NCBI GenBank assembly: GCA_040386355.1
Contig: JAZKFP010000050.1
Coordinates: 1-58,860 of the forward strand
Reading direction: 5' to 3'
From: Pseudomonadota bacterium
GTDB taxonomy: Bacteria > Pseudomonadota > Gammaproteobacteria > Pseudomonadales > UBA6940
DNA length: 58,860 bases
Below the pieces are notes generated by a model. It made no database searches. It saw only the letters and a program-made list of their open reading frames with translations, and was not told the DNA's origin. Positions 10,021-31,970 of the stretch are shown here, in pieces. The translations under genes and the position numbers were made by a program. The first letter of the stretch is position 1; each line of letters opens with the position of its first letter.

Positions 10021-10026
10021 ATATCT

Positions 10027-12383: not shown

Positions 12384-12414
12384 GCGGGAAGAATAGCGCT
12401 TTCTTCCCGCTTTT
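12384..12414 (-). terminator. rho-independent terminator downstream of ardC (bidirectional shape)
   Basis: GCGGGAAGA-N9-TCTTCCCGC stem flanked by an A-run and a T-run. Confidence 0.6.
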
Positions 12415-12419
12415 AATGG

Positions 12420-14340: not shown

Positions 14341-14387
14341 ACCTCCTTCCGGGATTGATCTTGCGGGCCTCCAAAAAGGAGGTTTGC

Positions 14388-14560
14388 ATGAGACTGATGA
14401 CGAGATTTGAGCTGGCCGCGAAAACTGAAAGCTAGCTGTATGCCCTGCTCAGAGAGGCGTTCAACGAGCTTGCGAAAAGCAATACCCGACACCCACCAAC
14501 GCCGCAACGCGCTGGCTTCCATCGAGAATATTCAGGGAGAATTAAAACGCCGCCAAAAAC
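14388..14560 (+). pseudogene. degraded small conserved plasmid/ICE-type ORF (..RRNALASIENI.. family)
   Basis: MRLMTRFELAAKTES, then TAG (14433-14435), then LYALLREAFNELAKS. The text continues in the +1 frame as IPDTHQRRNALASIENIQGELKRRQKL. That makes one amber codon plus one frameshift. The 3' boundary is approximate. Confidence 0.3.
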
Positions 14561-17951: not shown

Positions 17952-17973
17952 GATATTTAACTCCAATTCTAGT

Positions 17974-18600
17974 TTATAAAGCCGCAACTACGGCATTCAC
18001 GACAAACCGATTCCCAAACACCCGCGCAGTGATTAGTGATATTGTCAGAAATGCTCCCTGCACCAGATAAACCATGTTGTTGATTTTTCCCGTCAACTCT
18101 GCGTTCCCAAAAGCTGACCAAGCCAGCGTTGCAATAAAGATTATCAACAACCCTGAAAAAGCGTCCCTGTATAACAAAAAGCTGCGGTGAGCCTGCAACA
18201 CTTCCGGCGTGTCTTTCACAGACTTGTAAATTTGCTGGTACCAACGGCTGTTCCGAATGGAGCCATCGATTTTATCTTCTGAAAACACTTCGGGCCACCT
18301 GCTTTTAAGGGTCTCGAATTCAACTCTTGGTTCACTTTTGCAAAGCTTGTCGATTCGGCAAGCCGGCAATTCGTTTTTCACTCTGGTAAACACTATCTTG
18401 TGCTTTATTCCATGGGGAATAATATTTGCCAGCATCACCAAAACTGCCGAGAGCATGAGACTCATGCCTCCTGCCATGGCGGCATCTGCGATATTCGATA
18501 CAGCCTTGTATCCGAATTGCAGGAAGACAGAAGCGGTCAAAGATGCAGCCATGATGAAGAAAATGTTTTTGCTATTTTCTTTTTTTAAATCGACTTCCAT
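17974..18600 (-). CDS. membrane protein, about 4 TM helices with a central soluble loop
   Basis: Hydrophobic segments are IFFIMAASLTASVFLQFGY, GMSLMLSAVLVMLANII, FSGLLIIFIATLAWSAF and VYLVQGAFLTISLITARVF. Same strand as the MBL gene, 22 nt upstream of it. Confidence 0.6.
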   Translation of the reverse strand: MEVDLKKENSKNIFFIMAASLTASVFLQFGYKAVSNIADAAMAGGMSLMLSAVLVMLANIIPHGIKHKIVFTRVKNELPACRIDKLCKSEPRVEFETLKSRWPEVFSEDKIDGSIRNSRWYQQIYKSVKDTPEVLQAHRSFLLYRDAFSGLLIIFIATLAWSAFGNAELTGKINNMVYLVQGAFLTISLITARVFGNRFVVNAVVAAL

Positions 18601-18620
18601 TTTTCAGTTTCCACTCTCAA

Positions 18621-18992
18621 TTAAATTTTTCCGCAAAACGGAAGCGAACGTGATGACGTTGCATCCAAAAGCAAATGGCTCAAATATCCGGCACCTGCAC
18701 AAAGCGTCAACCCTCTTGCGAACGCCTCCACGCGATCTTGCGGTCGCCATTCATAAGCCTTCTTAAGCCCATACCCAATCAGTCCCAGGACGATCACGCT
18801 GTGACAAAACTGGCGGTGATGGGGATTGTTCAAGGAAGGTTCGAGAACGTCTGGCAACTTACTGAATGCTGTCCCTACTCCCATAGCCAGCAAGAAATCG
18901 TGTTGAAGATTGCCACTTTGATCCGAGTCGCCAATCGCGACCACTAAGCCAGCGAATCCCCCGACGATTGAGTACGTTGAGCAATTTGCCAT
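18621..18992 (-). CDS. small membrane-bound metal-dependent hydrolase-like protein (DUF457/YdjM-like)
   Basis: HHRQFCHSV and GYLSHLLLDATS motifs in a hydrophobic protein. ATG at 18992 has GGAG upstream. The ORF-track start at 19073 overlaps the upstream small gene. Confidence 0.55.
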   Translation of the reverse strand: MANCSTYSIVGGFAGLVVAIGDSDQSGNLQHDFLLAMGVGTAFSKLPDVLEPSLNNPHHRQFCHSVIVLGLIGYGLKKAYEWRPQDRVEAFARGLTLCAGAGYLSHLLLDATSSRSLPFCGKI

Positions 18993-18993
18993 G

Positions 18994-19167
18994 TTATTTC
19001 TCCTTTCTGACCCCTTTGAACGGGGATTTGTCGGTGGTTTTAACGTCCATGAAGCGTCCAGTATCAGTATCACGCTTCACGTAATGCCCTGAAGGGGTTT
19101 GGGTCTGCGAGCGATCTTTGACTGCGCCTTTGCGATGTCCGTCACCAGTTGGAGGATTTTTAGCCAT
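18994..19167 (-). CDS. 57-aa basic hydrophilic protein, first gene of the operon
   Basis: GAAGGAG-N7-ATG. Product is MAKNPPTGDGHRKGAVKDRSQTQTPSGHYVKRDTDTGRFMDVKTTDKSPFKGVRKEK. Its stop lies 1 nt before the next ATG. Below the ORF-track cutoff. Confidence 0.5.
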   Translation of the reverse strand: MAKNPPTGDGHRKGAVKDRSQTQTPSGHYVKRDTDTGRFMDVKTTDKSPFKGVRKEK

Positions 19168-19173
19168 ATAGAA

Positions 19174-19262
19174 CTCCTTCTGTCAACAATGGTTAATATT
19201 GATATTAACAGTCGTTAATAGTATCTTTGGAGTGGAGCTCCTTGTCAACAGGTGTTAATATT
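19174..19262. promoter_or_regulatory. divergent promoter/operator region with two ~25-bp direct repeats and a palindrome
   Basis: CTCCTTCTGTCAACAATGGTTAATATT (19174-19200) and CTCCTTGTCAACAGGTGTTAATATT (19238-19262). GTTAATAT-TG-ATATTAAC palindrome at 19192-19209. Confidence 0.45.
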
Positions 19263-19284
19263 AAAATCAACAGGAGTTAATGCC

Positions 19285-19647
19285 ATGTCAGACAAAATTG
19301 CTCAAGCCCAAACAATTAGTAAAAATATCAAGGAGATGCGTGAAAGTCGGGGCTGGAATCAAGCTCGGCTTGCTCAGGAGGCTGGTATAACCGCTGCCGC
19401 GCTAAGCATGATAGAGAAGGGTGATGGCCGGATGCCCACGATAGTGCTTTTGCGGAAAATCGCATCAGCGCTTAAGGTTCAGCTCAATGAGATTACAGGT
19501 GAAGAGCCCGCAATGGTTTCCGAGACTGAGGAGCGCAGCCGCGAGTTTTACCGCAAATGGGGGGATGTCATTGATGGCTTGCCGCCGGATGATCAGGCGA
19601 GATTGAAAGACATGGCTGAAAGACTGAAAGAGATCACGAAAAAATGA
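19285..19647 (+). CDS. XRE-family HTH transcriptional regulator
   Basis: IKEMRESRGWNQARLAQEAGITAAALSMIEKG is a classic Cro/C1 HTH. AGGAG upstream of the ATG at 19285. ATGA overlap with the next gene. Confidence 0.85.
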   Translation: MSDKIAQAQTISKNIKEMRESRGWNQARLAQEAGITAAALSMIEKGDGRMPTIVLLRKIASALKVQLNEITGEEPAMVSETEERSREFYRKWGDVIDGLPPDDQARLKDMAERLKEITKK

Positions 19648-20459
19648 TAGAAGAACAAAAAGGAGTCGTGGAGGCTGAAACGCTGCTGGAGTCTCTCGGT
19701 TTTGACGTGCTTCCAATCGCTCCCATTGATGTTGCCAATTCTATTAACTGCGATGATTTTCGGCTGGTAATGGAGTACCAGGATTTTCAGTCGGACAAAA
19801 TTCTTGGTAAAGCGGAAGGCAATAGCAAAGGTGCTCTCATTTACGTCAATAAAAACATTCCTGACGTGGGGCGACTCAATTTTACTGCCGCCCATGAAGT
19901 CGGGCACGTCTGCATGCACGTCATACCCCAGCAGAAACTTTCTTTTGAGTGCGGAAAACAAGAGTTGAGCAGCTCCTTCGATGATCCCATAGAAAAGCAG
20001 GCGAATGGATTTGCGTCAGGATTATTGATTCCCAAAAGGCTTATCAAACAGCACTCCGATTGCGATATTAACTGGAAAAATATTCATGTAATTTCCCAGT
20101 TGTGCGGAGCCTCTTTGGAGGCGACCTACAGGCGCCTCAGCTTTTTGGAAAAAACGCCGAGCATGCTTGTCATTCACAAAGACGGCAACTTCAAGCGGTT
20201 TGTCCCTTCACAGAATTTCGGTTTTTATGTGGCTCGAACCCCTCTTTCCATTGAGCAAAAATCATTGGTGGTGGACGTTAGCCAGAACCAATTCCCTGCT
20301 GATTTTGACACCACCGATGCCTCCGACTGGGTCAACACTTATTCTAAAAGCGGAAGCCTCAATACAATTTACACAAGCACGATATTGCTGAAAGACGGCT
20401 TTACCTACACAATTTTATCTTATGACGATAATTGCCTTGCTGAAGATGATGATTACTAG
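19644..20459 (+). CDS. ImmA/IrrE-family metalloendopeptidase
   Basis: FTAAHEVGHVCMH HExxH motif in the typical ImmA context; translationally coupled to the XRE gene. Confidence 0.8.
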   Translation: MIEEQKGVVEAETLLESLGFDVLPIAPIDVANSINCDDFRLVMEYQDFQSDKILGKAEGNSKGALIYVNKNIPDVGRLNFTAAHEVGHVCMHVIPQQKLSFECGKQELSSSFDDPIEKQANGFASGLLIPKRLIKQHSDCDINWKNIHVISQLCGASLEATYRRLSFLEKTPSMLVIHKDGNFKRFVPSQNFGFYVARTPLSIEQKSLVVDVSQNQFPADFDTTDASDWVNTYSKSGSLNTIYTSTILLKDGFTYTILSYDDNCLAEDDDY

Positions 20460-20933
20460 GACAGCGTTATCTTAGAGACTTAGCTATCCAACCAGCAGGC
20501 GGTTGGTTGATGGGTACTCCATAGGGAGATATGACATCCTCCCTTGGCCATGGGGTTCTTAGGGCCAGCACGGCGGCTCTACCTAAGTGGCGATTGAACG
20601 GGCATGCGTTCATGGAAGGTTCGGGTGCAGGAGGAGAAGGCAACTCTCCTAATCCTGCGAGTGATGAAAATGGCGATACGTTTTTATGGCGGCGAAGCGC
20701 CACTGCGTGGGGATGCAACGGGGATGCAATATCCTCTTGCCATGATGGTGCTGTAAATGTATACAGCACACATCTTGCTATCCGAAAGAAAAAGGGTTTG
20801 TACAGGTGATGAGGTTAAAACGGGTCGGTGCAATGATCCGGTTATGCATCGCCACTGCCCTTCATTTAAATATAGAATTTAATTTTCGTAATATTATCGT
20901 GCAACTGAATTTTCAACACATGCTCTCTATGAT

Positions 20934-21131
20934 TTATTTAATGTGATTTTCTAAAGATGGACGCAGCCTCTTGTGCGCGTCTGCTGTTTGCTTCATCCGC
21001 TGCTTTAAATATATTATTTCTGATTGTGTTAAGGGTTGATTAATGAGCAATAGCTTTTGCTTCAATCGCTGTGATGCATCTTGATCCATAGTCGAAGTTG
21101 TCTTATCAAAATCAGGTAAATCTTTTTTCAT
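20934..21131 (-). CDS. hypothetical small protein
   Basis: 65-codon ORF only; no motif. Confidence 0.3.
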   Translation of the reverse strand: MKKDLPDFDKTTSTMDQDASQRLKQKLLLINQPLTQSEIIYLKQRMKQTADAHKRLRPSLENHIK

Positions 21132-21195
21132 ATTTTGACGTTAACATATGATGAGCGGATTTTTATAAAAAATCTTTTGCGATTTATGTTTTTAA

Positions 21196-21516
21196 ATGAT
21201 GAGCTTCCCTGAAAGCGTTAAAACGATGAAGCGGCTTAAATTAACTGAAGAAATGCGTAAAGTCATTTAGCGGTGTGTTTGGTTTGAACAGCCTGAACAA
21301 GTGGTGGAAGATACTCCGCGCCTGGTGGCATACATATTAACCCATGGAATGCCGGAAGATACGCATACCCTTTTGCAACAATTATCCGAAGATGAACTAA
21401 AACAAGCATTAGATACTGCGCCGCCTGGGATTTATGATCCGCGCTCCTGGGCTTATTGGAATTTGATGGTTGGCCGCTTTGATACCCCTGTCCTTCCCAC
21501 GCGATCTTTTGAGTAA
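21196..21516 (+). pseudogene. small conserved hypothetical gene with an in-frame TAG
   Basis: MMSFPESVKTMKRLKLTEEMRKVI, then TAG (21268-21270), then RCVWFEQPEQVVEDTPRLVAYILTHG...PPGIYDPRSWAYWNL, all in one frame. Confidence 0.45.
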
Positions 21517-21654
21517 TAAAAAGATTATAAAAAAAGCGCTCTCATTTTTCAAAATAAAAGCGCCTCAATAAAATATTACGATGAATGAGTTTATAGGCTT
21601 AGGCTGAAAGTTATGAAAATAATAGATTACCCCAAGATCTTTTAAAATTACAGA

Positions 21655-23322
21655 TTAAAGACGCAGTTTTGTTTTTCCCTTATAAGCTTTGCCATAGAGT
21701 GGGTTCACTTCAAGCTGCTTTTTCCATGGTGAAATTTCGTGATAACTGATTTTATCCAGCAAGACAGGTCGTAAGCCACCGGAAAATAGAATGATTTTAT
21801 CTGTCCGGCGCACTTCATCCGGTGTCATCAGTTTTCGTGGAGTTTCATGCACTGAAGTTGAGACCGGATTAAAAAAATATTCGCCTATATTATAGTTTTT
21901 TGATTTGATGGATTGGTCACCCAACATATTTGAAATTAATTGGCAGGTTTTAAACGATCTTATATTCATGATGATTTTTACTTCTGTTTGAGAAAGCAAT
22001 GTTTCTAAACTTTCTCTTCCGTAAACATAAGCCCATTGCTCAAGCTCCTGAATTATGAGCCACATAGTAATCTGGTATTCTCTTGCCAAAGTTAACATCG
22101 ATGGCAAATTATCAACTTTAAAATTGGTAATTTCATCGCATAAAAAACATACGCGATTGGGGCCGGTAGTACGCATTAATTCTCTCAATGCACACCAGGA
22201 TAAAACCGCTAGCCATGGCGCATAGACGCTCATGCGAGTTGGATCAGCAATAAGATAAATAGTGATTTTTTTGTGTTTCATATCCGAAAAACGAAAATCA
22301 CATACGGACGTACATTCTGCAAGAACACCGCTTGCAGAAAACACTTCTACGGATTGCACCGCGCCCTCTCGAAAACTCTCAACTTGTTTAGGATCGCCAT
22401 TTTCGATTTTGCCGATCATATCGCGGGCCAGCCTGGCAAGATCACCATGTAAATGGGTGGATTGCACAGCCTCACGCAAGGCGGCATGTAATCTTTCGCT
22501 ATCACTTAGCAGTGATAAGGCGTTCGATAAGGTAGCGTTGCCTTCCATCGTCATCAAATATACAAATGCAAAAATCAAGAATTTTCGCGCACCATTTCGC
22601 CAATATTGGTTTTCACCTTGTGTTTTTGGGTCCTGACAAAACTGCTTTGCCAAACCTTCGGCCTCAGATAAAACTTGATTATGTAATTTTGGATCAACCC
22701 AAGTATCAATTAGAATTTGCAGCGGGTTGTATCGTGCGCCAACACCTAAAATATGCGCATTAATACCTGCTGGATTAACGAAAAGCGTTTCATGCTGAAA
22801 TTTTTTGCGGCGATATTTACCGGTCATGACAGCTAAAGTACCTTTTAAATCCGGCACCAACATACTTGTGGAGTTATGACATAAGGTTGGAATAACAAAA
22901 CCAGTGGTTTTTCCTCCACCAGCCGGACTAAGCACTAATCCAGAGGATTCAATATCTACAAAGACGGGTTTGTTGTTATGTAACCCCGCTAAAAATCCGC
23001 GTGGTTTTTTTCGAGCTCCAGAGAGCAATCCAAAAGTTTTAAATAATCCTGCTTGCTGTATTTCTTTAGGTGAAGCCCAACCGGCAGTTCCGGCTTTGCC
23101 GGTGGTTTTCATAGCTTTAATATAAAAAAATATTCGGGGAATGGATCTTAAAATTAAAGCGCCGAGATGGGCAAATAATAATCCGGCAGAAAACATGAAC
23201 ATCAGCGGCATTAATGCCCATTCGGTTTCGAGTAAATCAAATGTTTTCCATGCAAACCAGGAAAATAATACACCTAAAATCAACATGCCGGTGGGATGTT
23301 CACCTTGTCGATGATATCGCAT
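21655..23322 (-). CDS. type IV secretion coupling protein (VirD4/TraG/TraD family)
   Basis: Two N-terminal TM helices, Walker A SPAGGGKTTGFVIPT, and overall T4CP length and pattern. Confidence 0.85.
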   Translation of the reverse strand: MRYHRQGEHPTGMLILGVLFSWFAWKTFDLLETEWALMPLMFMFSAGLLFAHLGALILRSIPRIFFYIKAMKTTGKAGTAGWASPKEIQQAGLFKTFGLLSGARKKPRGFLAGLHNNKPVFVDIESSGLVLSPAGGGKTTGFVIPTLCHNSTSMLVPDLKGTLAVMTGKYRRKKFQHETLFVNPAGINAHILGVGARYNPLQILIDTWVDPKLHNQVLSEAEGLAKQFCQDPKTQGENQYWRNGARKFLIFAFVYLMTMEGNATLSNALSLLSDSERLHAALREAVQSTHLHGDLARLARDMIGKIENGDPKQVESFREGAVQSVEVFSASGVLAECTSVCDFRFSDMKHKKITIYLIADPTRMSVYAPWLAVLSWCALRELMRTTGPNRVCFLCDEITNFKVDNLPSMLTLAREYQITMWLIIQELEQWAYVYGRESLETLLSQTEVKIIMNIRSFKTCQLISNMLGDQSIKSKNYNIGEYFFNPVSTSVHETPRKLMTPDEVRRTDKIILFSGGLRPVLLDKISYHEISPWKKQLEVNPLYGKAYKGKTKLRL

Positions 23323-23415
23323 TGTGATGTCCTTAAAAATAAGTCTTTCCGATTATTAATGTAAATAATCGGAAAGATATGGATGGGATGGCACTTGCAA
23401 GAAAGGCTTTTAAAT

Positions 23416-24708
23416 TTATTTAATTTTCAAAAGCTGCATTGGATTTATAACGAGATTATTTGCATTAACGGACTGTGCGGATTGAAGCGCTTGGATCATA
23501 TTTTCTCCCTTATTTCCCGTTTCATTTTTTATGTGAAATTTTTTGGCAAAAGTTTCACCATTAACCGATAAACGAAGTTCCCCTTTCACTCCGCCAATTT
23601 TTATGCCGTCAAAAAAGTTAATTGCAATTATAAGTTTTTCTAAATCAATTTCTGAATGAAACTCAATAATTTCATACCCATTCAAAGCAGTATTAGAACT
23701 TCTATAATCTTTCCAATACGACCCTTCAGGTGAAGATGAATTTGCATAAAATAAAGGCTTAGCACCAGGAAAAGGCAATGCGTATAAATCTAAATCACAA
23801 GTTGCGCAGTCCCAGGACAAAGAAATTTCAACATCCCTGCCCTGCCGTATTTCGAAAGTCGACAATATTTTTTCTGATAGCTTTCGATCAAAAATTGACT
23901 GCTCTCTACGCTGTGTATGCAGACGGATCATTTCTAATTTTCCAGGCTGAGCATTTCCAAAATTATGCTGGGAAATTTTTATGTCTTTTCCCAGTGTTTT
24001 TTGAACACGCTGTAGAATAATTTCCGGATTGTTGGCAAAACTCAACAAACTCCCACCTTGACGCTCAATGAAAAGTGTCCAAAAGCGTTTTATAAAATAG
24101 ATATTTTGATCGTTTAAATTTTGAGAATTGGTGTAAGCAAAATGCACACGCATATTTGCTAACAGTTCAGGTGTATCAACTGTTCCAAAAGGTGTAATCG
24201 CCGTGGATTCCAATAAATGCGCATCAGAAGGAATGCTTGGGGCCGCCATACTAAAAGCCGGTTCTCGCGCGTCGTCATATAAAGGGGAACCGATCATTAA
24301 AATATCTAATGGTTCAAGTGGCGCATAATTTTCGGCTATATAGCGAAGCACTTGCGGGATACGCAGAGCTTCTTTTATTACAGGCTCCGCAGGCTGATTT
24401 TTAGTGAATTTCAGAAGCTTTGAAACCGTTTTACGGTTCACACCCATTCGCGCTTTAGGAGAGTTATAGGCTGAATCAATTGGTATTTTGAAATCACCAA
24501 TGTTTTCCAAGCTATAACCATTGATTAAAATTACATTGTCTCCAGGCTCAAGCGTGGTTAAAAAATTAATCACATTTGAAATCGTTTTTTTTGAATTGGC
24601 TTCGTCCATGTGCGGTGACAATACAATGACCAGGTCACGGGCTTGCACAACTGAACTCATTAAAAGAGTAATTATAAAGAATCCAACGCATAAATAAGGG
24701 TATCGCAT
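23416..24708 (-). CDS. secreted hypothetical protein
   Basis: 430-codon ORF with signal peptide MRYPYLCVGFFIITLLMSSVVQA, directly upstream of the T4CP gene on the same strand. Confidence 0.6.
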   Translation of the reverse strand: MRYPYLCVGFFIITLLMSSVVQARDLVIVLSPHMDEANSKKTISNVINFLTTLEPGDNVILINGYSLENIGDFKIPIDSAYNSPKARMGVNRKTVSKLLKFTKNQPAEPVIKEALRIPQVLRYIAENYAPLEPLDILMIGSPLYDDAREPAFSMAAPSIPSDAHLLESTAITPFGTVDTPELLANMRVHFAYTNSQNLNDQNIYFIKRFWTLFIERQGGSLLSFANNPEIILQRVQKTLGKDIKISQHNFGNAQPGKLEMIRLHTQRREQSIFDRKLSEKILSTFEIRQGRDVEISLSWDCATCDLDLYALPFPGAKPLFYANSSSPEGSYWKDYRSSNTALNGYEIIEFHSEIDLEKLIIAINFFDGIKIGGVKGELRLSVNGETFAKKFHIKNETGNKGENMIQALQSAQSVNANNLVINPMQLLKIK

Positions 24709-24752
24709 GGCATTGCTCCTGATAAAATGAATTTTAAATATGAAAATTAGAT

Positions 24753-25754
24753 TTATTGATAGAAATTGTTGACGGCACTAAATTTGGCACGTTGGCTGTT
24801 ATATTCCGCAACTTGCGAATTGATAAATGCCTGCCTGTTTGCGATGAATTGATTTAAATGTTGTCTTTTTTCGGCACATTCTTCAGTTAATGCTTTGTGT
24901 TCTGCGCAATGAATTTTCCAAGCAGCATCAAGCTCGACATATTCAAGATTATCGCAATAATAATCTGGAGAATATTTATTAAAAATATCTTCTAAAGCGA
25001 GAAATAAACTTGCTGATACTAAAATTTCAGAAAGCAGTTGAATCCAAACAAAACACGATCCTTTCCATTGAAAACCCTCCATTTCTTCGGCATTAAAACT
25101 GCTAGATACTCCGTTAAAATTTAATGAAAAAAATACGGTCCAGACAAGCAGCGTTATGCCGGTTAAAATATAAATACATAATCCATATTTTCTCTGGTTT
25201 TTATAAAAATCAATGAAGTTAGAAACAAATTTCAAAGAACAGCTGGCGGCTGGAACAAGCAGTGATAAACACAAGGCTAAGTGAGGTTTTTCAATAAAAA
25301 TTGTAATGCCTGATTCAACAAGATTTGAGTAAACATTTGCCGTACCCATAACCATTGAAATTAACAAAAAGATTGCTGTTAATATAAAATATGCTTGGTC
25401 TCTTTTATTCCAATTGTTAAAACGGATCGGATTTTTATTATTGTCATTCGAACCAGTGCTTACATACGCAGATTTAACGTGGCGTTTGGTAGAGCGTTTT
25501 CGAAGCGATAATTCAGCAAGCGTCACAGCAGATTCTTCACACCGCGCATCAAGCTGTTTTAATTCCATAGAAAGTGTTGTTTGATCTCCATAATAACCAT
25601 CATAAATTGCGCCAGCTTGCTCAGGGATCATGTGTTCAGCATTTTGAATATTTGAACTTTGTCTAACTTTTTTAATGAAGTCTGCCATTGAGCAGGCCAT
25701 TAAAGAATTTTCAATAATTTCTTTTTTTTCAGGGAGAGTGCGAGGCGAAATCAT
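24753..25754 (-). CDS. polytopic membrane protein with a coiled-coil C-terminus
   Basis: 333-codon ORF with at least four hydrophobic helices in the central part. Confidence 0.6.
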   Translation of the reverse strand: MISPRTLPEKKEIIENSLMACSMADFIKKVRQSSNIQNAEHMIPEQAGAIYDGYYGDQTTLSMELKQLDARCEESAVTLAELSLRKRSTKRHVKSAYVSTGSNDNNKNPIRFNNWNKRDQAYFILTAIFLLISMVMGTANVYSNLVESGITIFIEKPHLALCLSLLVPAASCSLKFVSNFIDFYKNQRKYGLCIYILTGITLLVWTVFFSLNFNGVSSSFNAEEMEGFQWKGSCFVWIQLLSEILVSASLFLALEDIFNKYSPDYYCDNLEYVELDAAWKIHCAEHKALTEECAEKRQHLNQFIANRQAFINSQVAEYNSQRAKFSAVNNFYQ

Positions 25755-25888
25755 GTTCTATCTCCAATATATGCTTTTGGTTAACTAGCAACGATACTGT
25801 GACCGTAATGCACTAGAAATTTGGGAAATAGAAATATGATTAAAAATCAAAAAAAAGCACCGCTGTTTTATGGCGGTGCTAATTTTAT

Positions 25889-26437
25889 TTAAAATTTAAT
25901 ATAGTGTTTTGCAACGTGAGGAAATTCGATTTCAACAAATAAAGTTAAAATCCTGAGCCTTTCAACTTTTCGGGAAATACGCTTTGGAAAAAATCCTGTT
26001 TTATCGGCCTCTATATAATGTGATACAGAGCGCATATCGGGATCATTTCCAAACGCCTCATCTAAATCTGGCAATTCATAAATACTTTCATTCGCATTTA
26101 TGAATTTACGTCCTTTCGAAAAGACAATTGAAAGTAAATCTAACAATTTTCTTCTTGAAACATTTTTTTTCATTTTATCTTTAGAGACTTTATCTTTAGA
26201 GGATTTATCTTTAGAGGATTTATCTTTAGAAGCTTTATCTTTAGAAGCTTTATCTTTAGAAGCTTTATCTTTAGAAGCTTTATCTTTGGAAGTTTTATCT
26301 TTGGAAGTTTTATCTTTGGAAGCTTTATCTTTGGAATGATCTTTTAAGCTCTTAATGACCATCCAAGTTATCCAATAATTTAGGGGGTGGTATAGCTCTG
26401 CCTTACTTGCAACACGAATTGTTTTTTTAAATTTCAT
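25889..26437 (-). CDS. hypothetical protein with an (S-K-D-K-x)11 pentapeptide repeat
   Basis: ATG at 26437 with AGGA upstream. Eleven in-frame 15-bp repeats encode SKDKA/T/S/V units. Confidence 0.55.
   Translation of the reverse strand: MKFKKTIRVASKAELYHPLNYWITWMVIKSLKDHSKDKASKDKTSKDKTSKDKASKDKASKDKASKDKASKDKSSKDKSSKDKVSKDKMKKNVSRRKLLDLLSIVFSKGRKFINANESIYELPDLDEAFGNDPDMRSVSHYIEADKTGFFPKRISRKVERLRILTLFVEIEFPHVAKHYIKF
26174..26338. repeat. 11 tandem copies of a 15-bp unit (tttatctttagaagc and variants)
   Basis: Counted directly: units start every 15 bp from 26174 to 26324. Variants are grouped in runs (gagga x2, gaagc x4, ggaagt x2). Confidence 0.9.
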
Positions 26438-26606
26438 GGGGATTTCCTTCAAGTGAAGAAATTGAATCCCCTTGGCCAAGGGTTTTTTTATAGGCTGCGC
26501 AGCCGGCTTAAACTTAATCAGCTATTGCGCTAATAGATATATAAGATTTAGAATCTTGTTAATATTATTAAATCGTAGTTAATAAAAAATCAAAAGAGAG
26601 ATTATT

Positions 26607-27209
26607 ATGCCAAATCAATATTGCAGAGGCTCACATCTTTCATCATGGCAATTTGAACACTTTGTGAGGATTTATATTGAAGAAGTTTGCATGTGCCTGA
26701 CAAATAACAATAAAAGAAAATATTATTTGAATAAGTTAGAAAGTTTGGGAGTCAAAATGGTGCGGCAGACTTTTGCAAAATATCATAACGATATTGGCGA
26801 TTGGTTATGGGAAAATTACATATTCCATCCCATTGTTGAAAAAGTAGACAACAAAGAAATTATTAATGAACTTTGCCAGCTAATATTTGGCCATGTTAAA
26901 TATTCAAATATGAAATTCCGTAAGGAAATTGAGTTCTATACTGGTGGCAATTTCTTCATACACAATTCTTATGAGTATCATGTTTTAGATAGGCGTTCCG
27001 ATCGTGCCTACGGTTTAAAGTTAGAAAATTTTTATCGTGAATTTAGCAGAGCTCGCTGGATCGGGGCCTTTATTAGAGAAGAAGGACTTAAACATCTTTC
27101 AGACTTTGAAAATTTATCTCAACTTTCGAAAGTTTTAAACAAAGCAGTTGATACCTTACTAATGAATCTTATAAAAAATCCTTTGTTAATCAAAAATGGG
27201 AAGACCTAA
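26607..27209 (+). CDS. hypothetical protein
   Basis: 200-codon ORF with AGAGAG upstream. A distant resemblance of the N-terminus to the HTH part of ISXO2-like transposases is too weak to call. Confidence 0.45.
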   Translation: MPNQYCRGSHLSSWQFEHFVRIYIEEVCMCLTNNNKRKYYLNKLESLGVKMVRQTFAKYHNDIGDWLWENYIFHPIVEKVDNKEIINELCQLIFGHVKYSNMKFRKEIEFYTGGNFFIHNSYEYHVLDRRSDRAYGLKLENFYREFSRARWIGAFIREEGLKHLSDFENLSQLSKVLNKAVDTLLMNLIKNPLLIKNGKT

Positions 27210-27929
27210 ATTTTTTCTAAAATTATCTAAATTTCCTTTAGATTCTGCCTCATCGTATTCTCTGCTATATTTTGCTATCGCAGCTTTTGTTTCGATTCTC
27301 AAGTCTCCAAATTTACTTAAATTTGCACCTATATGAGCAGATTGTGATAAATAATTTATTGGTTCAACTTCAATCAATGCATCACGTTGCTCTTCTTCTG
27401 TCAGAAAATCCTCATAACGCTTTAAATCTTCAGATTTTTCAACCTCACGTCTTTCATTTGTGCAATCTTGCGTCCAATCAAGAAAAGCTTTTTTATAAGC
27501 TTCAATGATTGCGGGCTTATTCTTAATTCGCTCTAAATCAATTGGATTGGCTGCTATCCATTCAGAAACGAGAATTTTAAGATTCTTTGCTCCAGAAACA
27601 TTTAAATCTACATAGTTTTCTATTTTTTTTGCTAAATTAACACCAAAAATTTTTGATAAAGACGGTGGTTCTGTCATTTCTGGCACATTTGATACAGCGA
27701 CTAGTTTTTTTATTGTTATAAATTTATTTTTGCCACTTTTATAAGGACTATTAATTATAAAGTCTAGATTTTCTTTACTAAAGTTTTCATTTTTTGATTT
27801 TTTAGCACTTTTAATTTGTGTGGTAGATTGATTTCCAACCAAATTTTCTTTTAAAAGTTTACTTGGGATCATCTCGTCTAGTTTATGAGATGGCTCAATT
27901 TTATTTTTTGAATATGATCTAATTTTCAC
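27186..27929 (-). CDS. hypothetical protein (second gene of a two-gene operon)
   Basis: 247-codon ORF starting 9 nt after the stop of 27939..29756. Confidence 0.55.
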   Translation of the reverse strand: MKIRSYSKNKIEPSHKLDEMIPSKLLKENLVGNQSTTQIKSAKKSKNENFSKENLDFIINSPYKSGKNKFITIKKLVAVSNVPEMTEPPSLSKIFGVNLAKKIENYVDLNVSGAKNLKILVSEWIAANPIDLERIKNKPAIIEAYKKAFLDWTQDCTNERREVEKSEDLKRYEDFLTEEEQRDALIEVEPINYLSQSAHIGANLSKFGDLRIETKAAIAKYSREYDEAESKGNLDNFRKNLGLPIFD

Positions 27930-27938
27930 AATCCACTC

Positions 27939-29756
27939 TCAACTTTCATTTGGACTTGTCATTAATACTCGTGCCAACGTGGCATCAGCTTGTTGCAAGG
28001 CGATTTCAATTTGATCTATTTTTAAAAATATTCCTGGCGTATTTAATTTAAAATATGGATTATCATAAATTCCAACTTTATAGTTCCATGTATCGTCCAG
28101 AACTTTAAAAGATATTTGATCTTTAGAAGTTTTAGCATTTGGATTCCATGTAAATTTTACATATTGGAAAGGATATACACGTGACAAGAGTTTAAGAGGA
28201 GTGTTTAAACGATTGGCAACTTCCTCTGGCGTATATTCTAAATTATTTTTTGAATTTGCTATCTCGTAAACTATAGCATGTAATACATTATAATATGTAT
28301 CCTGTATTTCTTTAATATAAAGATTATTAACACGAGTGCGAATGGAACGAATCGCATAATTCGCTACGCTATGATAAAAATGATAAATTTCTCGCCATGT
28401 TTTTTGCGGATCGTTTGTGTCACATTTAACAATATGTCCCATTGCGTAAACTGGGGCACCGGCTATGTGTATGGGAACGATAATTTGTTTGTATTTGGCA
28501 GTCTTATCTGGCTGCGAAAAAAATATTTCTGCACAGTTCGTATAATCTAATAATCTTTTATAATCAGGATCATTCTTGTAAATTTTTTCTGGAGGGCCCT
28601 CCGGTTCATCTAAGCGATTAAAAATATTGTATTTAATCGGCTCATTTAAAAATTGAACATAACCTCCACAAAAAGCAGCATCGAAAACAGATCGTGCCTT
28701 ATCCCCAAAAGGTCTTTCAGCATTATCTAGCATTTCATCAATTTCTTTAGGTGATAATTTTCCTTTAAGAGCTTCTTTTATATCCTTGCGCTGACTGTCA
28801 GGCACAATATGTCTTACACCGTGACTATATGCACCGTCACTATTTGCTAATTTACCGTTGAGACTTCCACGGTAACGTTTAGTTTCTCGATCAAACATCA
28901 TTATCCCAAACATAATGTTGGGGGGTGCTTTACCATTTTTGCATAAGAGTGGAGATCCTTTAAAACTCTCATAAATAAATTCAAAAACATGAACCGCTTT
29001 TTTATAATGCTCGTCAAAAAAATATTGTATTTCGTCTCGACAATCTTCGGCGGCTTTATTTTTTTTATAAGTTTTCAAATATAATTTTTCTTGAGGAGTA
29101 AACTTAATATCGGGATCATCAATTTTAATTGATTGTTTATGCCACCAATTTGCGCCTTCCTTACAAAATGGTTCTGTCATTACATTAATTTTATTTGCAT
29201 AAAAATATTTAAAAGCAGAGTCCCTTTCTACCTCCTTAACTAACTCTTCAAAAGAGTGATTATCTGAACTTTCACCATTTTTAAATTTGATTGCCTTAAA
29301 TTCGGGGGGCTCATAGCCTTTAGATTTTTTAAAATCTGCTAAAAAACACAGAAGGAAAATGTTTTTATGTATAGGAAAGACATAGTTCTGGCATTCTTCT
29401 AAATCGAGATAAATATAATTAGGATTTTTATTCTTAGAGGGAAGCTTATGCAACTTTTCTGGTTTTTTTAAGGTCGTCTCAAAGTCATCCTTCCATACTG
29501 GATCAAGGACTGTATGATGCAAAACTTTATACCAGCCATTAGCTACATCTTTTTCCAGCAATACGCTCGCTGCATTTTCTTGAAAGAAAATACGAAGGCG
29601 ACTGATAATTTGGCGATGTCCTACCTTAACAATTCTCTGTTGAATATCTGATGACAATAGAGATTGCTTGATAAGATAAACTCGCTCAAGAATATCTCTC
29701 ATGTTCTTATCTTCAATTGAAGCGACAACTTGAGCATTTTTTAATAGTGTTTCCAT
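27939..29756 (-). CDS. large hypothetical protein
   Basis: 605-codon uninterrupted ORF in ~30% GC DNA. No catalytic motif recognised. Confidence 0.65.
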   Translation of the reverse strand: METLLKNAQVVASIEDKNMRDILERVYLIKQSLLSSDIQQRIVKVGHRQIISRLRIFFQENAASVLLEKDVANGWYKVLHHTVLDPVWKDDFETTLKKPEKLHKLPSKNKNPNYIYLDLEECQNYVFPIHKNIFLLCFLADFKKSKGYEPPEFKAIKFKNGESSDNHSFEELVKEVERDSAFKYFYANKINVMTEPFCKEGANWWHKQSIKIDDPDIKFTPQEKLYLKTYKKNKAAEDCRDEIQYFFDEHYKKAVHVFEFIYESFKGSPLLCKNGKAPPNIMFGIMMFDRETKRYRGSLNGKLANSDGAYSHGVRHIVPDSQRKDIKEALKGKLSPKEIDEMLDNAERPFGDKARSVFDAAFCGGYVQFLNEPIKYNIFNRLDEPEGPPEKIYKNDPDYKRLLDYTNCAEIFFSQPDKTAKYKQIIVPIHIAGAPVYAMGHIVKCDTNDPQKTWREIYHFYHSVANYAIRSIRTRVNNLYIKEIQDTYYNVLHAIVYEIANSKNNLEYTPEEVANRLNTPLKLLSRVYPFQYVKFTWNPNAKTSKDQISFKVLDDTWNYKVGIYDNPYFKLNTPGIFLKIDQIEIALQQADATLARVLMTSPNES

Positions 29757-30106
29757 TTAAAAACCTATTTTTTGAAATATTCTGGGAAACAGAAAATATA
29801 AAATTAAAAAAAACTCTATTTTAAAATAATTTCTCGACAATAATCGCAAAATCACATACGTTAGGATCAAATTCCTATCACTGCGGCGCAGATCATTAGT
29901 TATAGAAAATAATTAATGATCTTCTTTTTGATTTATCCGCATTATGCACTTAGTGCGCAGCCGTCATTTATCTTGCGTGCATATTTCCCATTTCCGTACG
30001 CTGAGAGTGATATCTAACTCTACTCATACTTTATTTTCAACCCTTTGAAGCCAACGCGTTGTTTTTCTTTCTTGAAAAGCATTGCGCTTGTGCCTGCGAG
30101 TTTGCC

Positions 30107-30403
30107 ATGCCCATAAACATTGAAAAATATATGATTTATATGGATGGTTATGATCTGACCCCTTCACAAAAAATTGAAATGATTCAAACCGTCTATGGAT
30201 TAATGGAATCCAACATTGACCAAATTTTTGGTCAACATCCCGTACAACAATGCCGTGAATATAATGCAGTTAATAATTTACGAAATGAAAGCTGCGCGAT
30301 AGACTCGAAATTATCTGTTAAAAAATCATTTAGCCATAGTGCAAATGTGCGCAAACCCGTAAAAAGAAAGGCCTCAGTATGTCCAAACAACAACGCCTTA
30401 TAG
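30107..30403 (+). CDS. small hypothetical protein overlapping the recombinase start
   Basis: ATG at 30107 (MPINIEKYMIYMDGYDLTPSQKIEMIQ...). Overlaps the recombinase start by 25 nt. Confidence 0.45.
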   Translation: MPINIEKYMIYMDGYDLTPSQKIEMIQTVYGLMESNIDQIFGQHPVQQCREYNAVNNLRNESCAIDSKLSVKKSFSHSANVRKPVKRKASVCPNNNAL

Positions 30404-31959
30404 CCGTAACCTATTGCAGAGTGAGTTCTGTACGCCAAGTTAAAGAAGGTAGCGGATTGACATCGCAAGCTATTCGATGCAGTGAGTATGCGAAATATAA
30501 AAACTATGAAGTTATTCATGTTTTCCAAGATGAAGGTATTTCTGGAAGTTTGATTGAACGTCCAGGGATGCAAGAAATGCTGAACTTCATTCGTAAGCAG
30601 AAGGAAAAACCTTGTATTGTTTTGATTGATGACATTTCGAGATTAGCCCGCGGGTTGGCTGCGCATATTGAGTTGCGTACTGCCATTAGTGCTGCGGGTG
30701 GGAAACTGGAAAGCCCTTCAATTGAATTTGGCGAAGATTCTGACAGTGTTTTAGTCGAGAATCTTCTTGCTAGTGTTTCTCAACATTCCAGGCAAAAAAA
30801 TGCAGAACAAGTTAGCCACAGAATGAGAGCGCGGGCTTTGAATGGCTATTGCGTAACCCCCCCCGTTCCTGGATATCAATATAAAAAAGTTGCAGGACAT
30901 GGCAAATTATTAGTGCGTGATGAACTAGCAAATATTGTTCAAACAGCGCTTGAATCTTTTGCTAGTGGCCGTTTTCAGACATTGGCGGAAGTTACCAGAT
31001 ATTTAAATTCACAGCCGACTTTTCCAAAAGGAAAGAGTAGCAAAGTCGTGCATCCACAACGCGTGGCGGATATGTTAAGACGCCCTATTTATGCAGGATA
31101 TCTCAATTATCCTACATGGAATATTAATATGATATTAGGTCATCACGAGCCAATTATCAGTTATGAGACCTTTAAAAAAATTCAGGAGCGTCTTGATGGT
31201 AAAGCCAAAGTGCCAGCACGGAAAGACATCAGCCATGCATTTCCCCTCCGCGGTTTTATAGTGTGCGCATGCTGCCAAAAAGCTATGACAGCTTGTTTTT
31301 CTCAAGGACGCAGCCGAAAATATCCATATTATTTCTGTGCAACTAAAGGATGCTCTAGCTATAAACGAACTATTGCGAGAGAAAAAATCGAATCGGAATT
31401 TGAAAATTTATTGAAGCAGCTGAAACCATCAAAAAACTTATTTAATCTGGCGCATGCCATATTTAAAGATCTTTGGGAAGAACGCATGATTAATCGTCAT
31501 GGAGAAATTCATGTTATTAAAAATCATGTGTTGAAAATTGAAAATCAAATTATGAAAATGGTGGATCGTGTTGTTGAAACAGACAGCCCAACATTAGTTG
31601 CAACTTATGAAGATCGGATTCGAAATCTCGAAGATCAAAAGATCACATTGAAGGAAAAAATCGCGCAATGTGGTACAGCTCTGCCAGATTTTGACACGGC
31701 TTTTCACACCGCTTTTGATTTTCTAGAAAACCCCTATAAAATGTGGGCTTCCGGGCAATTAGAGCATCAAAGAAGTTTGCTAAAACTCACGTTTACCGAC
31801 AACCTAGCATATGATCGCAATAGTGGATTTCGAACCGCTAAAACCACCTTACCTTTTGCGGTGTTAAACGGCATATCTAAGGGAAATTATGGAATGGTGG
31901 AGCTAAGCGGGATCGAACCGCTGACCTCGACACTGCCAGTGTCGCGCTCTCCCAGCTGA
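30379..31959 (+). CDS. large serine recombinase
   Basis: N-terminal resolvase motif IAVTYCRVSSVRQ, DDISRLARG, a recombinase domain, Cys-rich zinc ribbon CACCQK...YYFCATKGC, and a coiled coil. The last 65 nt of the ORF overlap tRNA-Ala on the opposite strand. Confidence 0.9.
   Translation: MSKQQRLIAVTYCRVSSVRQVKEGSGLTSQAIRCSEYAKYKNYEVIHVFQDEGISGSLIERPGMQEMLNFIRKQKEKPCIVLIDDISRLARGLAAHIELRTAISAAGGKLESPSIEFGEDSDSVLVENLLASVSQHSRQKNAEQVSHRMRARALNGYCVTPPVPGYQYKKVAGHGKLLVRDELANIVQTALESFASGRFQTLAEVTRYLNSQPTFPKGKSSKVVHPQRVADMLRRPIYAGYLNYPTWNINMILGHHEPIISYETFKKIQERLDGKAKVPARKDISHAFPLRGFIVCACCQKAMTACFSQGRSRKYPYYFCATKGCSSYKRTIAREKIESEFENLLKQLKPSKNLFNLAHAIFKDLWEERMINRHGEIHVIKNHVLKIENQIMKMVDRVVETDSPTLVATYEDRIRNLEDQKITLKEKIAQCGTALPDFDTAFHTAFDFLENPYKMWASGQLEHQRSLLKLTFTDNLAYDRNSGFRTAKTTLPFAVLNGISKGNYGMVELSGIEPLTSTLPVSRSPS
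31892..31904. repeat. right att repeat inside the tRNA-Ala 3' end
   Basis: GAATGGTGGAGCT is identical to 3875-3887. Confidence 0.6.
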
Positions 31960-31970
31960 GCTATAGCCCC
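31895..31970 (-). tRNA. tRNA-Ala (anticodon GGC)
   Basis: The reverse complement folds as a cloverleaf: GGGGCTA/TAGCTCC acceptor stem with the G3:U70 Ala identity pair, anticodon loop CTGGCAG, TTCGATC T-loop, and an encoded CCA. Confidence 0.92.

What the first reader, a model, noticed from the sequence alone, without database searches (positions are those of the whole stretch)
31892..31959. The recombinase ORF crosses the att junction, giving a tRNA-encoded C-terminus when integrated and a different 33-residue tail (3877-3981) when circularised
In the integrated state the last 21 codons (MVELSGIEPLTSTLPVSRSPS) are simply the antisense of the tRNA-Ala gene. Recombination inside the 13-bp repeat would join the ORF to the sequence at the left end. 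That sequence continues in the same frame for 34 codons without a stop (MVELKGDLSHQLFDVFNEWSAILKDVLPDPFPSP, stop at 3979-3981). An open, protein-like frame of this length in AT-rich DNA is unlikely to be accidental. The element may therefore make a 539-aa recombinase when excised and a 526-aa form when integrated. That difference could act as a switch for directionality or expression. Phage 21 and e14, whose attP lies inside int, are precedents.
Basis: partly seen in the sequence, partly recalled or inferred. Interest (0 to 1): 0.62.

Follow-up and report, generated by a model that had tools for sequence, protein, structure and literature searches.

The report
Serine integrase gene split by integration
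A mobile island sits at a tRNA-Ala gene, and its serine integrase gene runs across the island's own attachment site, so integration replaces a conserved C-terminal peptide with meaningless antisense-tRNA codons; about 100 related elements at ten kinds of tRNA gene are built the same way, which I did not find described in the literature searched.

Summary
A 526-aa large serine recombinase (LSR) ORF (30379-31959) reads 21 codons into the antisense of tRNA-Ala(GGC) (31895-31970). A unique 13-bp direct repeat (3875-3887 / 31892-31904) bounds a 28-kb mobilisable island. Joining the ends keeps the frame and adds a 34-codon tail (3877-3981).

The length of that open frame is not significant on its own (chance about 0.14). 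Homologues settle the question:
- All 80 related genome loci place TGG, the antisense of CCA, in the same codon register.
- 108 of the 120 best homologues end in antisense-tRNA peptides.
- Three contiguous attP-form genes, about 11 attL relics with DNA in hand and about 13 short database ORFs carry the same tail motif, S-N-x-L-F-x-x-L-x-x-W. Leu and Phe are invariant across 15 tails but use varied codons.
- One attP-form contig is 90-92% identical to elements that are split at a 9-bp core.

The element-side arm also carries the tRNA T-loop motif CGAACC exactly 5 bp further out than in the tRNA. This is the register shift known for LSR attP versus attB sites.

The two-isoform claim is therefore supported. 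That the swap controls directionality remains an untested inference. I judge this a new variant of a known kind.

The parts
3875..31904 (.). Whole integrative mobilisable element (about 28 kb), bounded by the 13-bp direct repeat
   Evidence: The repeat is unique in the window. GC rises inside the island. Gene content: NikA-like protein, MOB relaxase, RelE/HTH pair, small resolvase, ArdC, E2/ThiF/JAB protein, HTH+M78 pair and T4 coupling protein; no T4SS component other than the coupling protein among the ORFs of 90 aa or more that I scanned.
3875..3887 (+). attL core: the displaced copy of the tRNA 3' end (antisense AGCTCCACCA+TTC)
   Evidence: TGG, the antisense of CCA, lies at 3878-3880.
3877..3981 (+). 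Detached 3' end of the recombinase gene. It encodes the circular-form C-terminal tail MVELKGDLSHQLFDVFNEWSAILKDVLPDPFPSP.
   Evidence: ORF listed. It is homologous to the tails of attP-form homologues and to attL relics. Codon-level selection is shown.
3888..3910 (+). P' arm of attP (element-side half-site). In 14 of 15 relatives it carries (T/G)CGAACC at +23..+29 from TGG. The window has TCACATC there.
   Evidence: alignment; comparison with the B' arm.
4016..4044 (+). Terminator-like hairpin (11-bp stem followed by a T-run) 35 nt after the tail stop codon. It could instead be an oriT inverted repeat.
   Evidence: Comparable hairpins follow the tail stop in L001 and L007.
4156..4407 (+). NikA-like relaxase accessory gene, the first gene inside the left end
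   Evidence: Pfam PF21983. In attP-form contigs L001 and L002 this gene directly follows the recombinase gene.
4532..5815 (+). MobA/VirD2-type relaxase
   Evidence: Pfam PF03432. It is 48% identical to the L001 relaxase.
21655..23322 (-). Type IV coupling protein (VirD4/TraG-like)
   Evidence: Pfam PF02534, PF12696 and PF10412.
30107..30403 (+). Small conserved ORF overlapping the recombinase start (MPINIEKY...LMESNIDQIFGQHPVQQ). Candidate cofactor or regulator.
   Evidence: A homologous ORF precedes the LSR in most related loci. It has no Pfam match.
30379..31959 (+). Large serine recombinase, integrated form (526 aa). Residues 1-505 are element-encoded, residues 506-509 lie in the core repeat, and residues 510-526 are antisense tRNA.
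31892..31904 (+). attR core, overlapping the 3' end of the functional tRNA
31895..31970 (-). tRNA-Ala(GGC), the integration target. Its last 10 nt, including CCA, lie within the 13-bp repeat, so the part of them on the island side of the crossover is now island-supplied. The B' arm carries TCGAACC at +18..+24.

Best explanation
The 28-kb segment 3875-31904 is an integrative mobilisable element. It was inserted at the CCA end of tRNA-Ala(GGC) by its own large serine recombinase (LSR).

The element's attachment site attP lies inside the 3' end of the recombinase gene. The P arm encodes ...GNYG, the crossover core encodes M-V-E-L, and the P' arm encodes the start of a C-terminal tail.

In the circular element the gene is whole and gives 539 aa. 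The protein ends in a conserved, probably helical peptide (S-x-x-L-F-x-x-[L/F]-x-x-W-x-x-x-L), and a terminator-like hairpin follows the stop codon.

Integration exchanges DNA within the short core at the tRNA's NCCA end. This does two things. It replaces the tRNA's last few nucleotides with an identical island-borne copy, so the tRNA gene stays intact. It also moves the tail-coding segment 28 kb away to attL. The integrated gene therefore reads into the antisense tRNA and makes a 526-aa protein with a meaningless 17-residue ending.

Site recognition most likely uses the universal tRNA T-loop. TCGAAC lies at +18..+23 from the TGG in the tRNA arm, and the element arm carries CGAACC 5 bp further out. 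This matches the known 5-bp zinc-ribbon-domain register shift between LSR attB and attP sites.

Shown here: the anatomy, the family-wide register, the conservation and coding constraint of the tail, and the existence of contiguous and split versions of near-identical elements.

Inferred here: the tail-bearing protein, which only the excised circle can make, is the integration-proficient form. Loss of the tail after integration would change activity or directionality, possibly together with the small conserved ORF upstream. I put the anatomy at about 0.9 and this functional switch at about 0.35.
For: Anatomy in the window.

Family-wide evidence:
- 108 of the 120 best homologues (52-64% identical) end in antisense-tRNA peptides, and 3 end in the LF..L..W tail.
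- In 80 of 80 genome loci, TGG lies exactly 1 nt after the first base of the codon equivalent to residue 506.
- ARAGORN calls a minus-strand tRNA there in 62 of 80 loci: Arg 31, Ala 9, Leu 8, Val 3, Thr 3, Ser 2, Lys 2, Glu 2, Tyr 1, Met 1.

attP-form contigs:
- L001 and L002 have the order LSR+tail, then NikA/MobC, then relaxase. This is the gene order obtained by joining the window's right end to its left end.
- The contiguous attP-form contig L083 is 90-92% identical to L021, L030 and L032. In L021 and L032 the same sequence is split into an attR part and an attL part that overlap by the 9-bp AAATGGTGG.

The tail at attL:
- It is in frame at attL in L007, L021, L028, L032, L033, L051, L052, L085, L086 and L087.
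- 20 short ORFs in the 5.8-billion-protein set match the profile built from the conserved C-terminal stretch plus tail; about 13 of them carry the tail itself, the rest matching through the stretch before it.

Coding constraint: L and F are invariant yet use 5 Leu and 2 Phe codons. In a close set, 3-7.5 synonymous differences fall in about 14 sites against 0-4.5 nonsynonymous differences in about 49 sites.

DNA-level half-site: (T/G)CGAACC lies at +23..+29 in 14 of 15 P' arms, with Ser always TCG and Asn AAC in 13 of 15. T(C/T)GAAC lies at +18..+23 in 77 of 80 B' arms and is never found in the P' register. The 5-bp ZD register shift is documented for phiC31 (10.1101/2025.05.02.651858).

A terminator-like hairpin follows the tail stop codon.
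Against: - No circular junction or empty site was seen for this element. Only about 10x assembled contigs of one metagenome run are available, and they show the integrated form only.
- The window's own P' arm lacks the CGAACC motif (TCACATC). This copy may be divergent or less active.
- The tail is a low-confidence helix in AlphaFold2 (pLDDT below 50), so there is no structural hint of what it contacts.
- Most copies in the collections searched are integrated, tail-less genes, and most still read as full-length ORFs. The tail therefore may not be essential.
- A conserved small upstream ORF could be a conventional directionality factor, which would make a tail switch unnecessary.
- Part of the tail's conservation (T-S-N) is explained by DNA-level att-site constraint, not by protein function.
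Confidence: 0.8

Rival explanations
1. The read-through is real but functionally neutral. attP happens to overlap the 3' end of the gene, and the conserved 'tail' reflects DNA-level constraints (the P' half-site, a terminator, perhaps oriT) and not a needed peptide. Both isoforms would recombine equally, and directionality would be set by a separate factor such as the small upstream ORF.
For: The CGAACC motif shows pure DNA-level conservation: the Ser codon is TCG and no other Ser codon (the window's copy, which lacks the motif, has TCA), GCG (Ala) still keeps CGAACC, and Asn is AAC in 13 of 15. The tail is a low-confidence region in AF2. Most family genes found are the tail-less integrated form, and most still read as full-length ORFs. 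A conserved upstream ORF is available as a cofactor.
Against: Invariant L-F and W lie at +32 to +55 from the TGG, beyond the roughly 25-30 bp usual for an LSR attP half-site. They are kept through 5 different Leu codons and 2 Phe codons, with synonymous changes well in excess of nonsynonymous changes in close pairs. Tail lengths differ (24-58 aa), but the motif and its 6-residue spacing from M-V are kept.
Confidence: 0.25
2. This is a 'suicidal' integrase in the SSV sense. The tail is essential, so integration inactivates the recombinase and locks the island in. Excision would then need a complete copy supplied in trans by an incoming or tandem element.
For: The logic has a precedent in archaeal SSV-type integrases (PMC8371274). 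Tandem arrays and decayed copies occur at these tRNA sites: an LSR pseudogene remnant with an intact tail at L023:5200, a similar one at L030, and a relic at L051:3802.
Against: Only about 30 of 539 residues are lost. All catalytic, DNA-binding and coiled-coil domains remain. Most integrated copies sampled from many phyla still read as full-length ORFs, although a few decayed copies and in-frame stops were seen. Contiguous attP forms at 90-92% identity to integrated ones suggest ongoing cycling.
Confidence: 0.18
3. After integration the tail segment is expressed on its own. It starts with ATG, formed by the conserved A before TGG, and would act in trans as a small peptide on the truncated recombinase.
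For: The base before TGG is A in 14 of 15 attL copies, so the detached segment begins with ATG. Gene callers annotate it as a short ORF in many assemblies.
Against: No promoter-like site was found in 3700-4300, and no ribosome-binding site is evident upstream of 3877. The A is equally explained as part of the shared core.
Confidence: 0.05
4. The 13-bp repeat and the open frame are coincidences, and the island's true ends or integrase lie elsewhere.
For: A 30-codon open frame has about a 14% chance locally. The island also carries a small resolvase (10200-10778).
Against: The repeat is unique (expected 0.06). It coincides with a tRNA 3' end and with the exact register seen in 80 of 80 related loci. 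The left end begins with the same NikA/relaxase genes that follow the LSR in attP-form contigs.
Confidence: 0.02

Closest known systems
Phage-type large serine integrases (phiC31, Bxb1, Listeria A118/LI, SPbeta SprA)
   Same: The domain order is the same: catalytic resolvase domain, recombinase domain, and a zinc ribbon with an inserted coiled coil. The attP/attB identity is short (7-13 bp core). The outer half-site motif lies 5 bp further from the centre in attP than in attB (phiC31 structure paper).
   Different: These enzymes have attP outside the integrase gene. They target protein-coding or intergenic sites and use a separate directionality factor. Here attP lies inside the gene's 3' end, the target is the CCA end of tRNA genes, the carrier is a mobilisable island and not a phage, and the protein's C-terminus depends on the element's state.
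SSV-type 'suicidal' tyrosine integrases of archaeal viruses and plasmids (SSV1, SSV2, pTN3, pT26-2)
   Same: The recombination site lies within the recombinase's own gene. The target is a tRNA gene. Integration breaks the gene, so the complete protein can be made only from the free circle (PMC8371274).
   Different: They belong to an unrelated enzyme family (tyrosine versus serine) and are archaeal. Their gene is cut into two substantial pseudogene halves that are reported to be inactive. Here only the last 30 or so residues are exchanged and every recognised domain remains. The review states that self-disrupting recombinases are known only in archaea.
Lambdoid phage 21 / e14 integrases at icd
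   Same: These are bacterial cases in which attP overlaps the 3' end of int, so that the prophage and phage forms of Int differ at the C-terminus.
   Different: They are tyrosine recombinases with a protein-coding target (icd). My literature searches confirmed only the icd target, not the int overlap.
Classical tRNA-gene genomic islands with tyrosine integrases (for example the second island in this window, 45355-52277)
   Same: They integrate at the 3' part of a tRNA gene. The island carries a copy of the displaced tRNA end, which gives a direct repeat.
   Different: The direct repeat is long (49 nt here), and the integrase is a tyrosine recombinase whose gene lies wholly inside the island. 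[quoted passage not shown]
Junction-dependent expression in other circularising elements (ICEclc Pcirc, IS911/IS30 junction promoters, Tn916; recalled from memory)
   Same: A gene product or expression state exists only when the element's two ends are joined.
   Different: Those elements create a promoter across the joint. Here the joint completes a coding sequence.

Membership tests
Large serine recombinase (serine integrase) | N-terminal resolvase catalytic domain with the serine nucleophile | tested here: met
   PF00239 matches residues 9-156 with E=1e-22. The Y-x-R-V-S-S motif is invariant in the alignments.
Large serine recombinase (serine integrase) | Recombinase domain plus a zinc-ribbon domain with an inserted coiled coil | tested here: met
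   PF07508 matches 182-274 and PF13408 matches 289-345. The four Cys are invariant. The AF2 model of homologue P0041 has long helices at 352-400 and 404-431.
Large serine recombinase (serine integrase) | Short att sites sharing only a small core around the crossover | tested here: met
   The core is 13 bp in the window and 7-9 bp in relatives.
Large serine recombinase (serine integrase) | Outer (zinc-ribbon) half-site motif 5 bp further from the centre in attP than in attB | tested here: met
   For the family, CGAAC lies at +24..+28 in 14 of 15 P' arms and at +19..+23 in 77 of 80 B' arms. The window's own P' arm does not carry the motif. Binding by the zinc-ribbon domain is inferred, not shown.
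Large serine recombinase (serine integrase) | Catalyses attP x attB integration; excision needs a directionality factor | not testable with these tools
   There is no biochemical data. A conserved small ORF upstream is a candidate cofactor only.
Integrative mobilisable element (IME) | Own integrase plus relaxase/oriT functions, without a complete mating-pore (T4SS) gene set | tested here: met
   The LSR, NikA-like protein, relaxase and T4 coupling protein are present. No other T4SS Pfam families were found among the ORFs of 90 aa or more that I scanned, though several ORFs have no match at all. oriT itself was not identified.
tRNA-gene genomic island | The direct repeat consists of the tRNA 3' end, and an intact tRNA is regenerated at one end | tested here: met
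   The repeat is the last 10 nt of tRNA-Ala including CCA, plus 3 nt. ARAGORN calls an intact tRNA at attR.
SSV-type 'suicidal' integrase | Tyrosine recombinase fold and catalytic residues | tested here: not met
   The protein is a serine recombinase. It works like this family in one respect but is not a member.
SSV-type 'suicidal' integrase | attP inside the recombinase ORF, so that integration disrupts the gene | tested here: met
   Only the C-terminal tail is exchanged.
SSV-type 'suicidal' integrase | The integrated gene fragments are inactive | not testable with these tools
   The activity of the 526-aa form is unknown.

The most novel reading that the evidence does not exclude
A large bacterial family of serine integrases has directionality control built into the architecture of its own gene. 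Only the excised circle can encode the tail-bearing, integration-proficient enzyme. Integration at the CCA end of a tRNA gene automatically converts the gene into a tail-less isoform with altered directionality or activity. The enzyme finds its many different tRNA targets by reading the universal T-loop with its zinc-ribbon domain. This would be the first self-splitting recombinase described outside archaea and the first serine-integrase family dedicated to tRNA genes.
Probability: 0.35. Interest if true: 0.85.

Novelty: new variant of a known kind. Interest (0 to 1): 0.72.

Why it matters
Serine integrases are prized in genome engineering because they are simple and unidirectional. How direction is set is an active structural question.

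This family would offer a natural experiment. The same enzyme exists in two forms that differ only in a roughly 30-residue C-terminal peptide, and the form is dictated by whether the element is free or integrated.

It also overturns two statements in the literature I could read. One is that serine-family integrases are not known to target tRNA genes (PMC4383910). The other is that recombinases which disrupt their own gene are exclusively archaeal (PMC8371274).

The apparent use of the universal T-loop plus the CCA end as the attB half-site explains how close relatives occupy at least ten different tRNA isotypes. It also suggests integrases whose natural landing sites already exist in many bacterial genomes.

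There is a practical point for annotation as well. Hundreds of database 'recombinase' proteins carry spurious antisense-tRNA C-termini, and their true tails are annotated as orphan mini-ORFs.

Tried and rejected
- **Direct evidence for excision.** The window comes from a watershed metagenome. Only Logan contigs of one run hold it, at about 10x. They span attL without a branch and break inside the tRNA at attR. No circular or empty-site contig was seen, which is uninformative.
- **Empty-site comparison through the flanking gltX.** The closest genome is only 58% identical, so no syntenic relative exists.
- **Plasmid collection.** The family is essentially absent from PLSDB, with one 37% partial hit. 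pPDL2, which has attP at the 3' end of its int gene and targets tRNA-Ser (PMC3516476), did not appear among the PLSDB protein-search hits, so I dropped it as a characterised member.
- **Structure.** AF2 of attP-form homologue P0041 gives a confident body, but the tail is a pLDDT<50 helix with no reliable docking. I did not run fold searches on it.
- **False attL candidates.** Candidates at a conserved TGGCGC in L034, L051, L052 and L060 turned out to lie inside a conserved gene. The true attL for L051 and L052 was found further upstream.
- **Crossover at the TCGAAC motif.** I rejected this because it would break the frame and lies outside the shared core.
- **Inverted-repeat symmetry in the P and B arms.** I compared a few arms by eye and saw no clear GGTTCG-like motif. 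I did not pursue it because the P arm is confounded by coding constraint.
- **Literature.** Seven full-text searches found no description of this family or arrangement. This is absence of evidence within an incomplete library.
Full report
**1. The observation**

ARAGORN places tRNA-Ala(GGC) on the minus strand at 31895-31970. The ORF 30379-31959 on the plus strand encodes 526 aa with Resolvase, Recombinase and Zn_ribbon_recom domains, so it is a large serine recombinase (LSR). From its ATG at 31894 onward, the last 21 codons (MVELSGIEPLTSTLPVSRSPS) are the reverse complement of the tRNA's acceptor and T arms.

GAATGGTGGAGCT occurs only at 3875-3887 and 31892-31904. About 0.06 matches are expected by chance. 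The repeat is the last 10 nt of the tRNA, including CCA, plus 3 downstream nt.

In both copies an ATG starts at offset +2. The left copy opens a 34-codon ORF, 3877-3981: MVELKGDLSHQLFDVFNEWSAILKDVLPDPFPSP. Joining the island's ends therefore gives a 539-aa protein.

About 14% of local positions or shuffles give at least 30 stop-free codons. The frame length alone proves nothing.

**2. What the island is**

The segment between the repeats is 28 kb and richer in G+C. It starts with a NikA-like gene and a MobA/VirD2-type relaxase. It also carries:
- a RelE/HTH pair
- a small resolvase
- ArdC
- an E2/ThiF/JAB protein
- an HTH/M78 pair
- a type IV coupling protein

It has no mating-pore gene set. 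It is therefore an integrative mobilisable element. The right flank is gltX.

**3. The family**

The 120 best homologues of the recombinase are 52-64% identical and 501-580 aa long. Their sequences agree up to a nearly invariant M-V/A at the position of residues 506-507, then diverge. Of the 120, 108 continue with peptides such as G-[IFL]-E-P. These are antisense translations of tRNA T arms.

I examined 80 loci from reference genomes. Every one has TGG exactly 1 nt after the first base of that Met codon. ARAGORN calls a minus-strand tRNA there in 62 loci: Arg 31, Ala 9, Leu 8, Val 3, Thr 3, Ser 2, Lys 2, Glu 2, Tyr 1 and Met 1. The other 18 loci show tRNA-like sequence or a contig end.

The whole family therefore integrates at the CCA end of tRNA genes, with its ORF reading into them. 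The window is a typical member.

**4. The other tail is real**

- **Contiguous attP forms.** Three homologues do not end in tRNA antisense. They end in MVDLNGDKANQLFDLLADWNRCLKG... (P0041), MVDHSVVTSNHLFRTLTEWEEALKR... (P0090) and MVEVSGDTSNRLFEVLALWETIFR (P0073). These align with the window's left-end ORF. On the contigs of P0041 and P0090, the recombinase gene is followed directly by NikA/MobC-like and relaxase genes. This is the order produced by circularising the window's island.
- **Relics at attL.** In integrated relatives whose left end lies within reach, the same tail sits in frame right after an A-TGG-T/C-G tRNA-end fragment. Examples are L007 (MVEPDGEVSKQLFLILAEWDFILQSASVDLSPSL, also 34 aa), L021, L028, L032, L033, L051, L052, L085, L086 and L087. 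In L085 and L087 the tail lies directly upstream of the mob genes.
- **Database ORFs.** A profile of the conserved C-terminal stretch plus the tail retrieves 20 short ORFs from the 5.8-billion-protein set. About 13 of them carry the tail itself; the others match through the stretch before it.
- **A before-and-after pair.** The contiguous attP-form contig L083 is 90-92% identical to L021, L030 and L032. In L021, L083 positions 2945-4866 match the attR side and positions 4858-4923 match the attL side 7.5 kb away. The two matches overlap by the 9-bp AAATGGTGG. L032 is split in the same way.

**5. Two layers of constraint in the tail**

I aligned 15 element-side arms from the TGG.

*DNA-level constraint.* (T/G)CGAACC occupies +23..+29 in 14 of the 15 arms. 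The Ser codon there is TCG in 11, GCG (Ala) replaces it in 3 and still keeps CGAACC, and Asn is AAC in 13. The window's own arm reads TCA CAT. The next base is always C. In the tRNA arm the T-loop sequence T(C/T)GAAC lies at +18..+23 in 77 of 80 loci, and never in the +5 register. A 5-bp outward shift of the zinc-ribbon-domain motif in attP relative to attB is an established LSR feature (10.1101/2025.05.02.651858). I therefore infer that the zinc-ribbon domain reads the T-loop. This would explain how relatives use so many different tRNAs. The window's own P' arm is the single exception (TCACATC).

*Protein-level constraint.* Further out, at +32 to +55, L-F, L and W are kept while codons vary: five Leu codons and two Phe codons. 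In a close set, 3-7.5 synonymous differences fall in about 14 sites, against 0-4.5 nonsynonymous differences in about 49 sites. Pooled pN/pS is about 0.5, with synonymous sites near saturation. The spacing of six residues between M-V and S-N is fixed.

*After the stop codon.* A terminator-like hairpin follows the tail stop in the window (4016-4044), in L001 and in L007.

**6. Mechanism**

*Shown.* attP lies within the gene. Integration swaps a conserved C-terminal peptide for antisense-tRNA codons and regenerates the tRNA. Contiguous and split forms of near-identical elements both exist.

*Inferred.* The crossover lies within (A)TGG(T/C)G, the smallest core shared by all pairs. T-loop recognition is also an inference.

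*Hypothesis.* The tail-bearing enzyme, which only the circle can make, is the integration form, and its loss changes directionality or activity.

AF2 models the tail of P0041 as a helix (513-530) but with pLDDT below 50 and no reliable contacts. A conserved small ORF overlaps the recombinase start in most loci, with the motif ...DIEKY...LW.IMESFVDRAFG.HPVQQ. It lies at about 30107-30403 in the window and has no Pfam match. It could be a conventional directionality factor.

The rivals are:
- neutral overlap
- SSV-like self-inactivation
- separate translation of the tail
- coincidence, which is effectively excluded

**7. Comparison with what is known, and novelty**

The enzyme passes every sequence-testable criterion for a large serine integrase. 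It is not a member of the SSV-type 'suicidal' tyrosine integrases, though it shares their logic.

[quoted passage not shown] Self-disrupting recombinases are said to be exclusively archaeal (PMC8371274). Seven searches found no description of this family, and the LSR discovery paper does not mention tRNA at all. The library is incomplete, so prior description elsewhere cannot be excluded.

I rate this a new variant of a known kind.

**8. Limits**

- There is no direct evidence that this particular copy excises.
- No close relative is available for an empty-site comparison.
- The window's P' arm is atypical.
- The functional consequence of the tail swap is untested.

Noticed in passing
window 45326-52277: There is a second, unrelated island at tRNA-Arg(ACG). 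A perfect 49-nt direct repeat (45355-45403 / 52229-52277) bounds about 6.9 kb. The island carries a tyrosine integrase (50831-52063, minus strand), a small terminase subunit (46621-47097), an AbiC-like protein and DUF4917. It looks like a PICI-like phage satellite, and it makes a useful in-window contrast to the serine-integrase island.
   Followed up: partly
window 30107-30403 (and upstream of the LSR in most of L003-L082, L002, L083, L168): A small ORF overlaps the recombinase start and is conserved across the family (...DIEKY...D[LM]T..QK.E.I..LW.IMESFVDRAFG.HPVQQ). It has no Pfam match. It is a candidate directionality factor or regulator of the integrase.
   Followed up: partly
L023:~5100-5310; L030:~5900-6010; L051:3802; L060:5141 (minus strand): Decayed copies and tandem accretion occur at the same tRNA sites. 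These include recombinase pseudogene stubs still joined to an intact tail (attP-like remnants) and orphan tail relics between a conserved gene and the mob genes.
   Followed up: partly
window 14542-17987 (minus strand): Island cargo includes a 757-aa protein that combines prokaryotic E2, ThiF/E1-like and JAB domains. It is followed by a weak metallo-beta-lactamase-fold ORF. This is a ubiquitin-like conjugation module of the kind associated with anti-phage defence.
   Followed up: no
window 26144-26353: There are about 14 tandem copies of a 15-nt unit (TTTATCTTTAGAAGC and variants) inside the ORF 25889-26479 (minus strand). They would encode a pentapeptide-repeat stretch in a protein with no Pfam match.
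   Followed up: no
window 4016-4044: A strong hairpin (11-bp stem followed by a T-run) lies between the tail stop codon and the NikA-like gene. It is either the terminator of the circular-form recombinase gene or an oriT inverted repeat. Similar hairpins occur in L001 and L007.
   Followed up: partly
L005:10001-12340 (protein P0015, 780 aa): One family member does not end at a tRNA. It reads on into a peptidase M48-like (PF01435) and TPR-like region, giving a 780-aa fusion ORF. This may be a rearranged or mis-integrated copy.
   Followed up: no
window 1147-3872 and 23416-29756: Several large ORFs in the left flank (632 aa, 183 aa) and inside the island (605, 430, 333, 247 aa) have no Pfam match. 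The host has no close relative among reference genomes; its gltX is at most 58% identical to any of them.
   Followed up: no
window 56037-56180 / 56701-56844: A 144-nt direct repeat at 77% identity, with copies spaced 664 nt apart, lies near the right end of the window.
   Followed up: no
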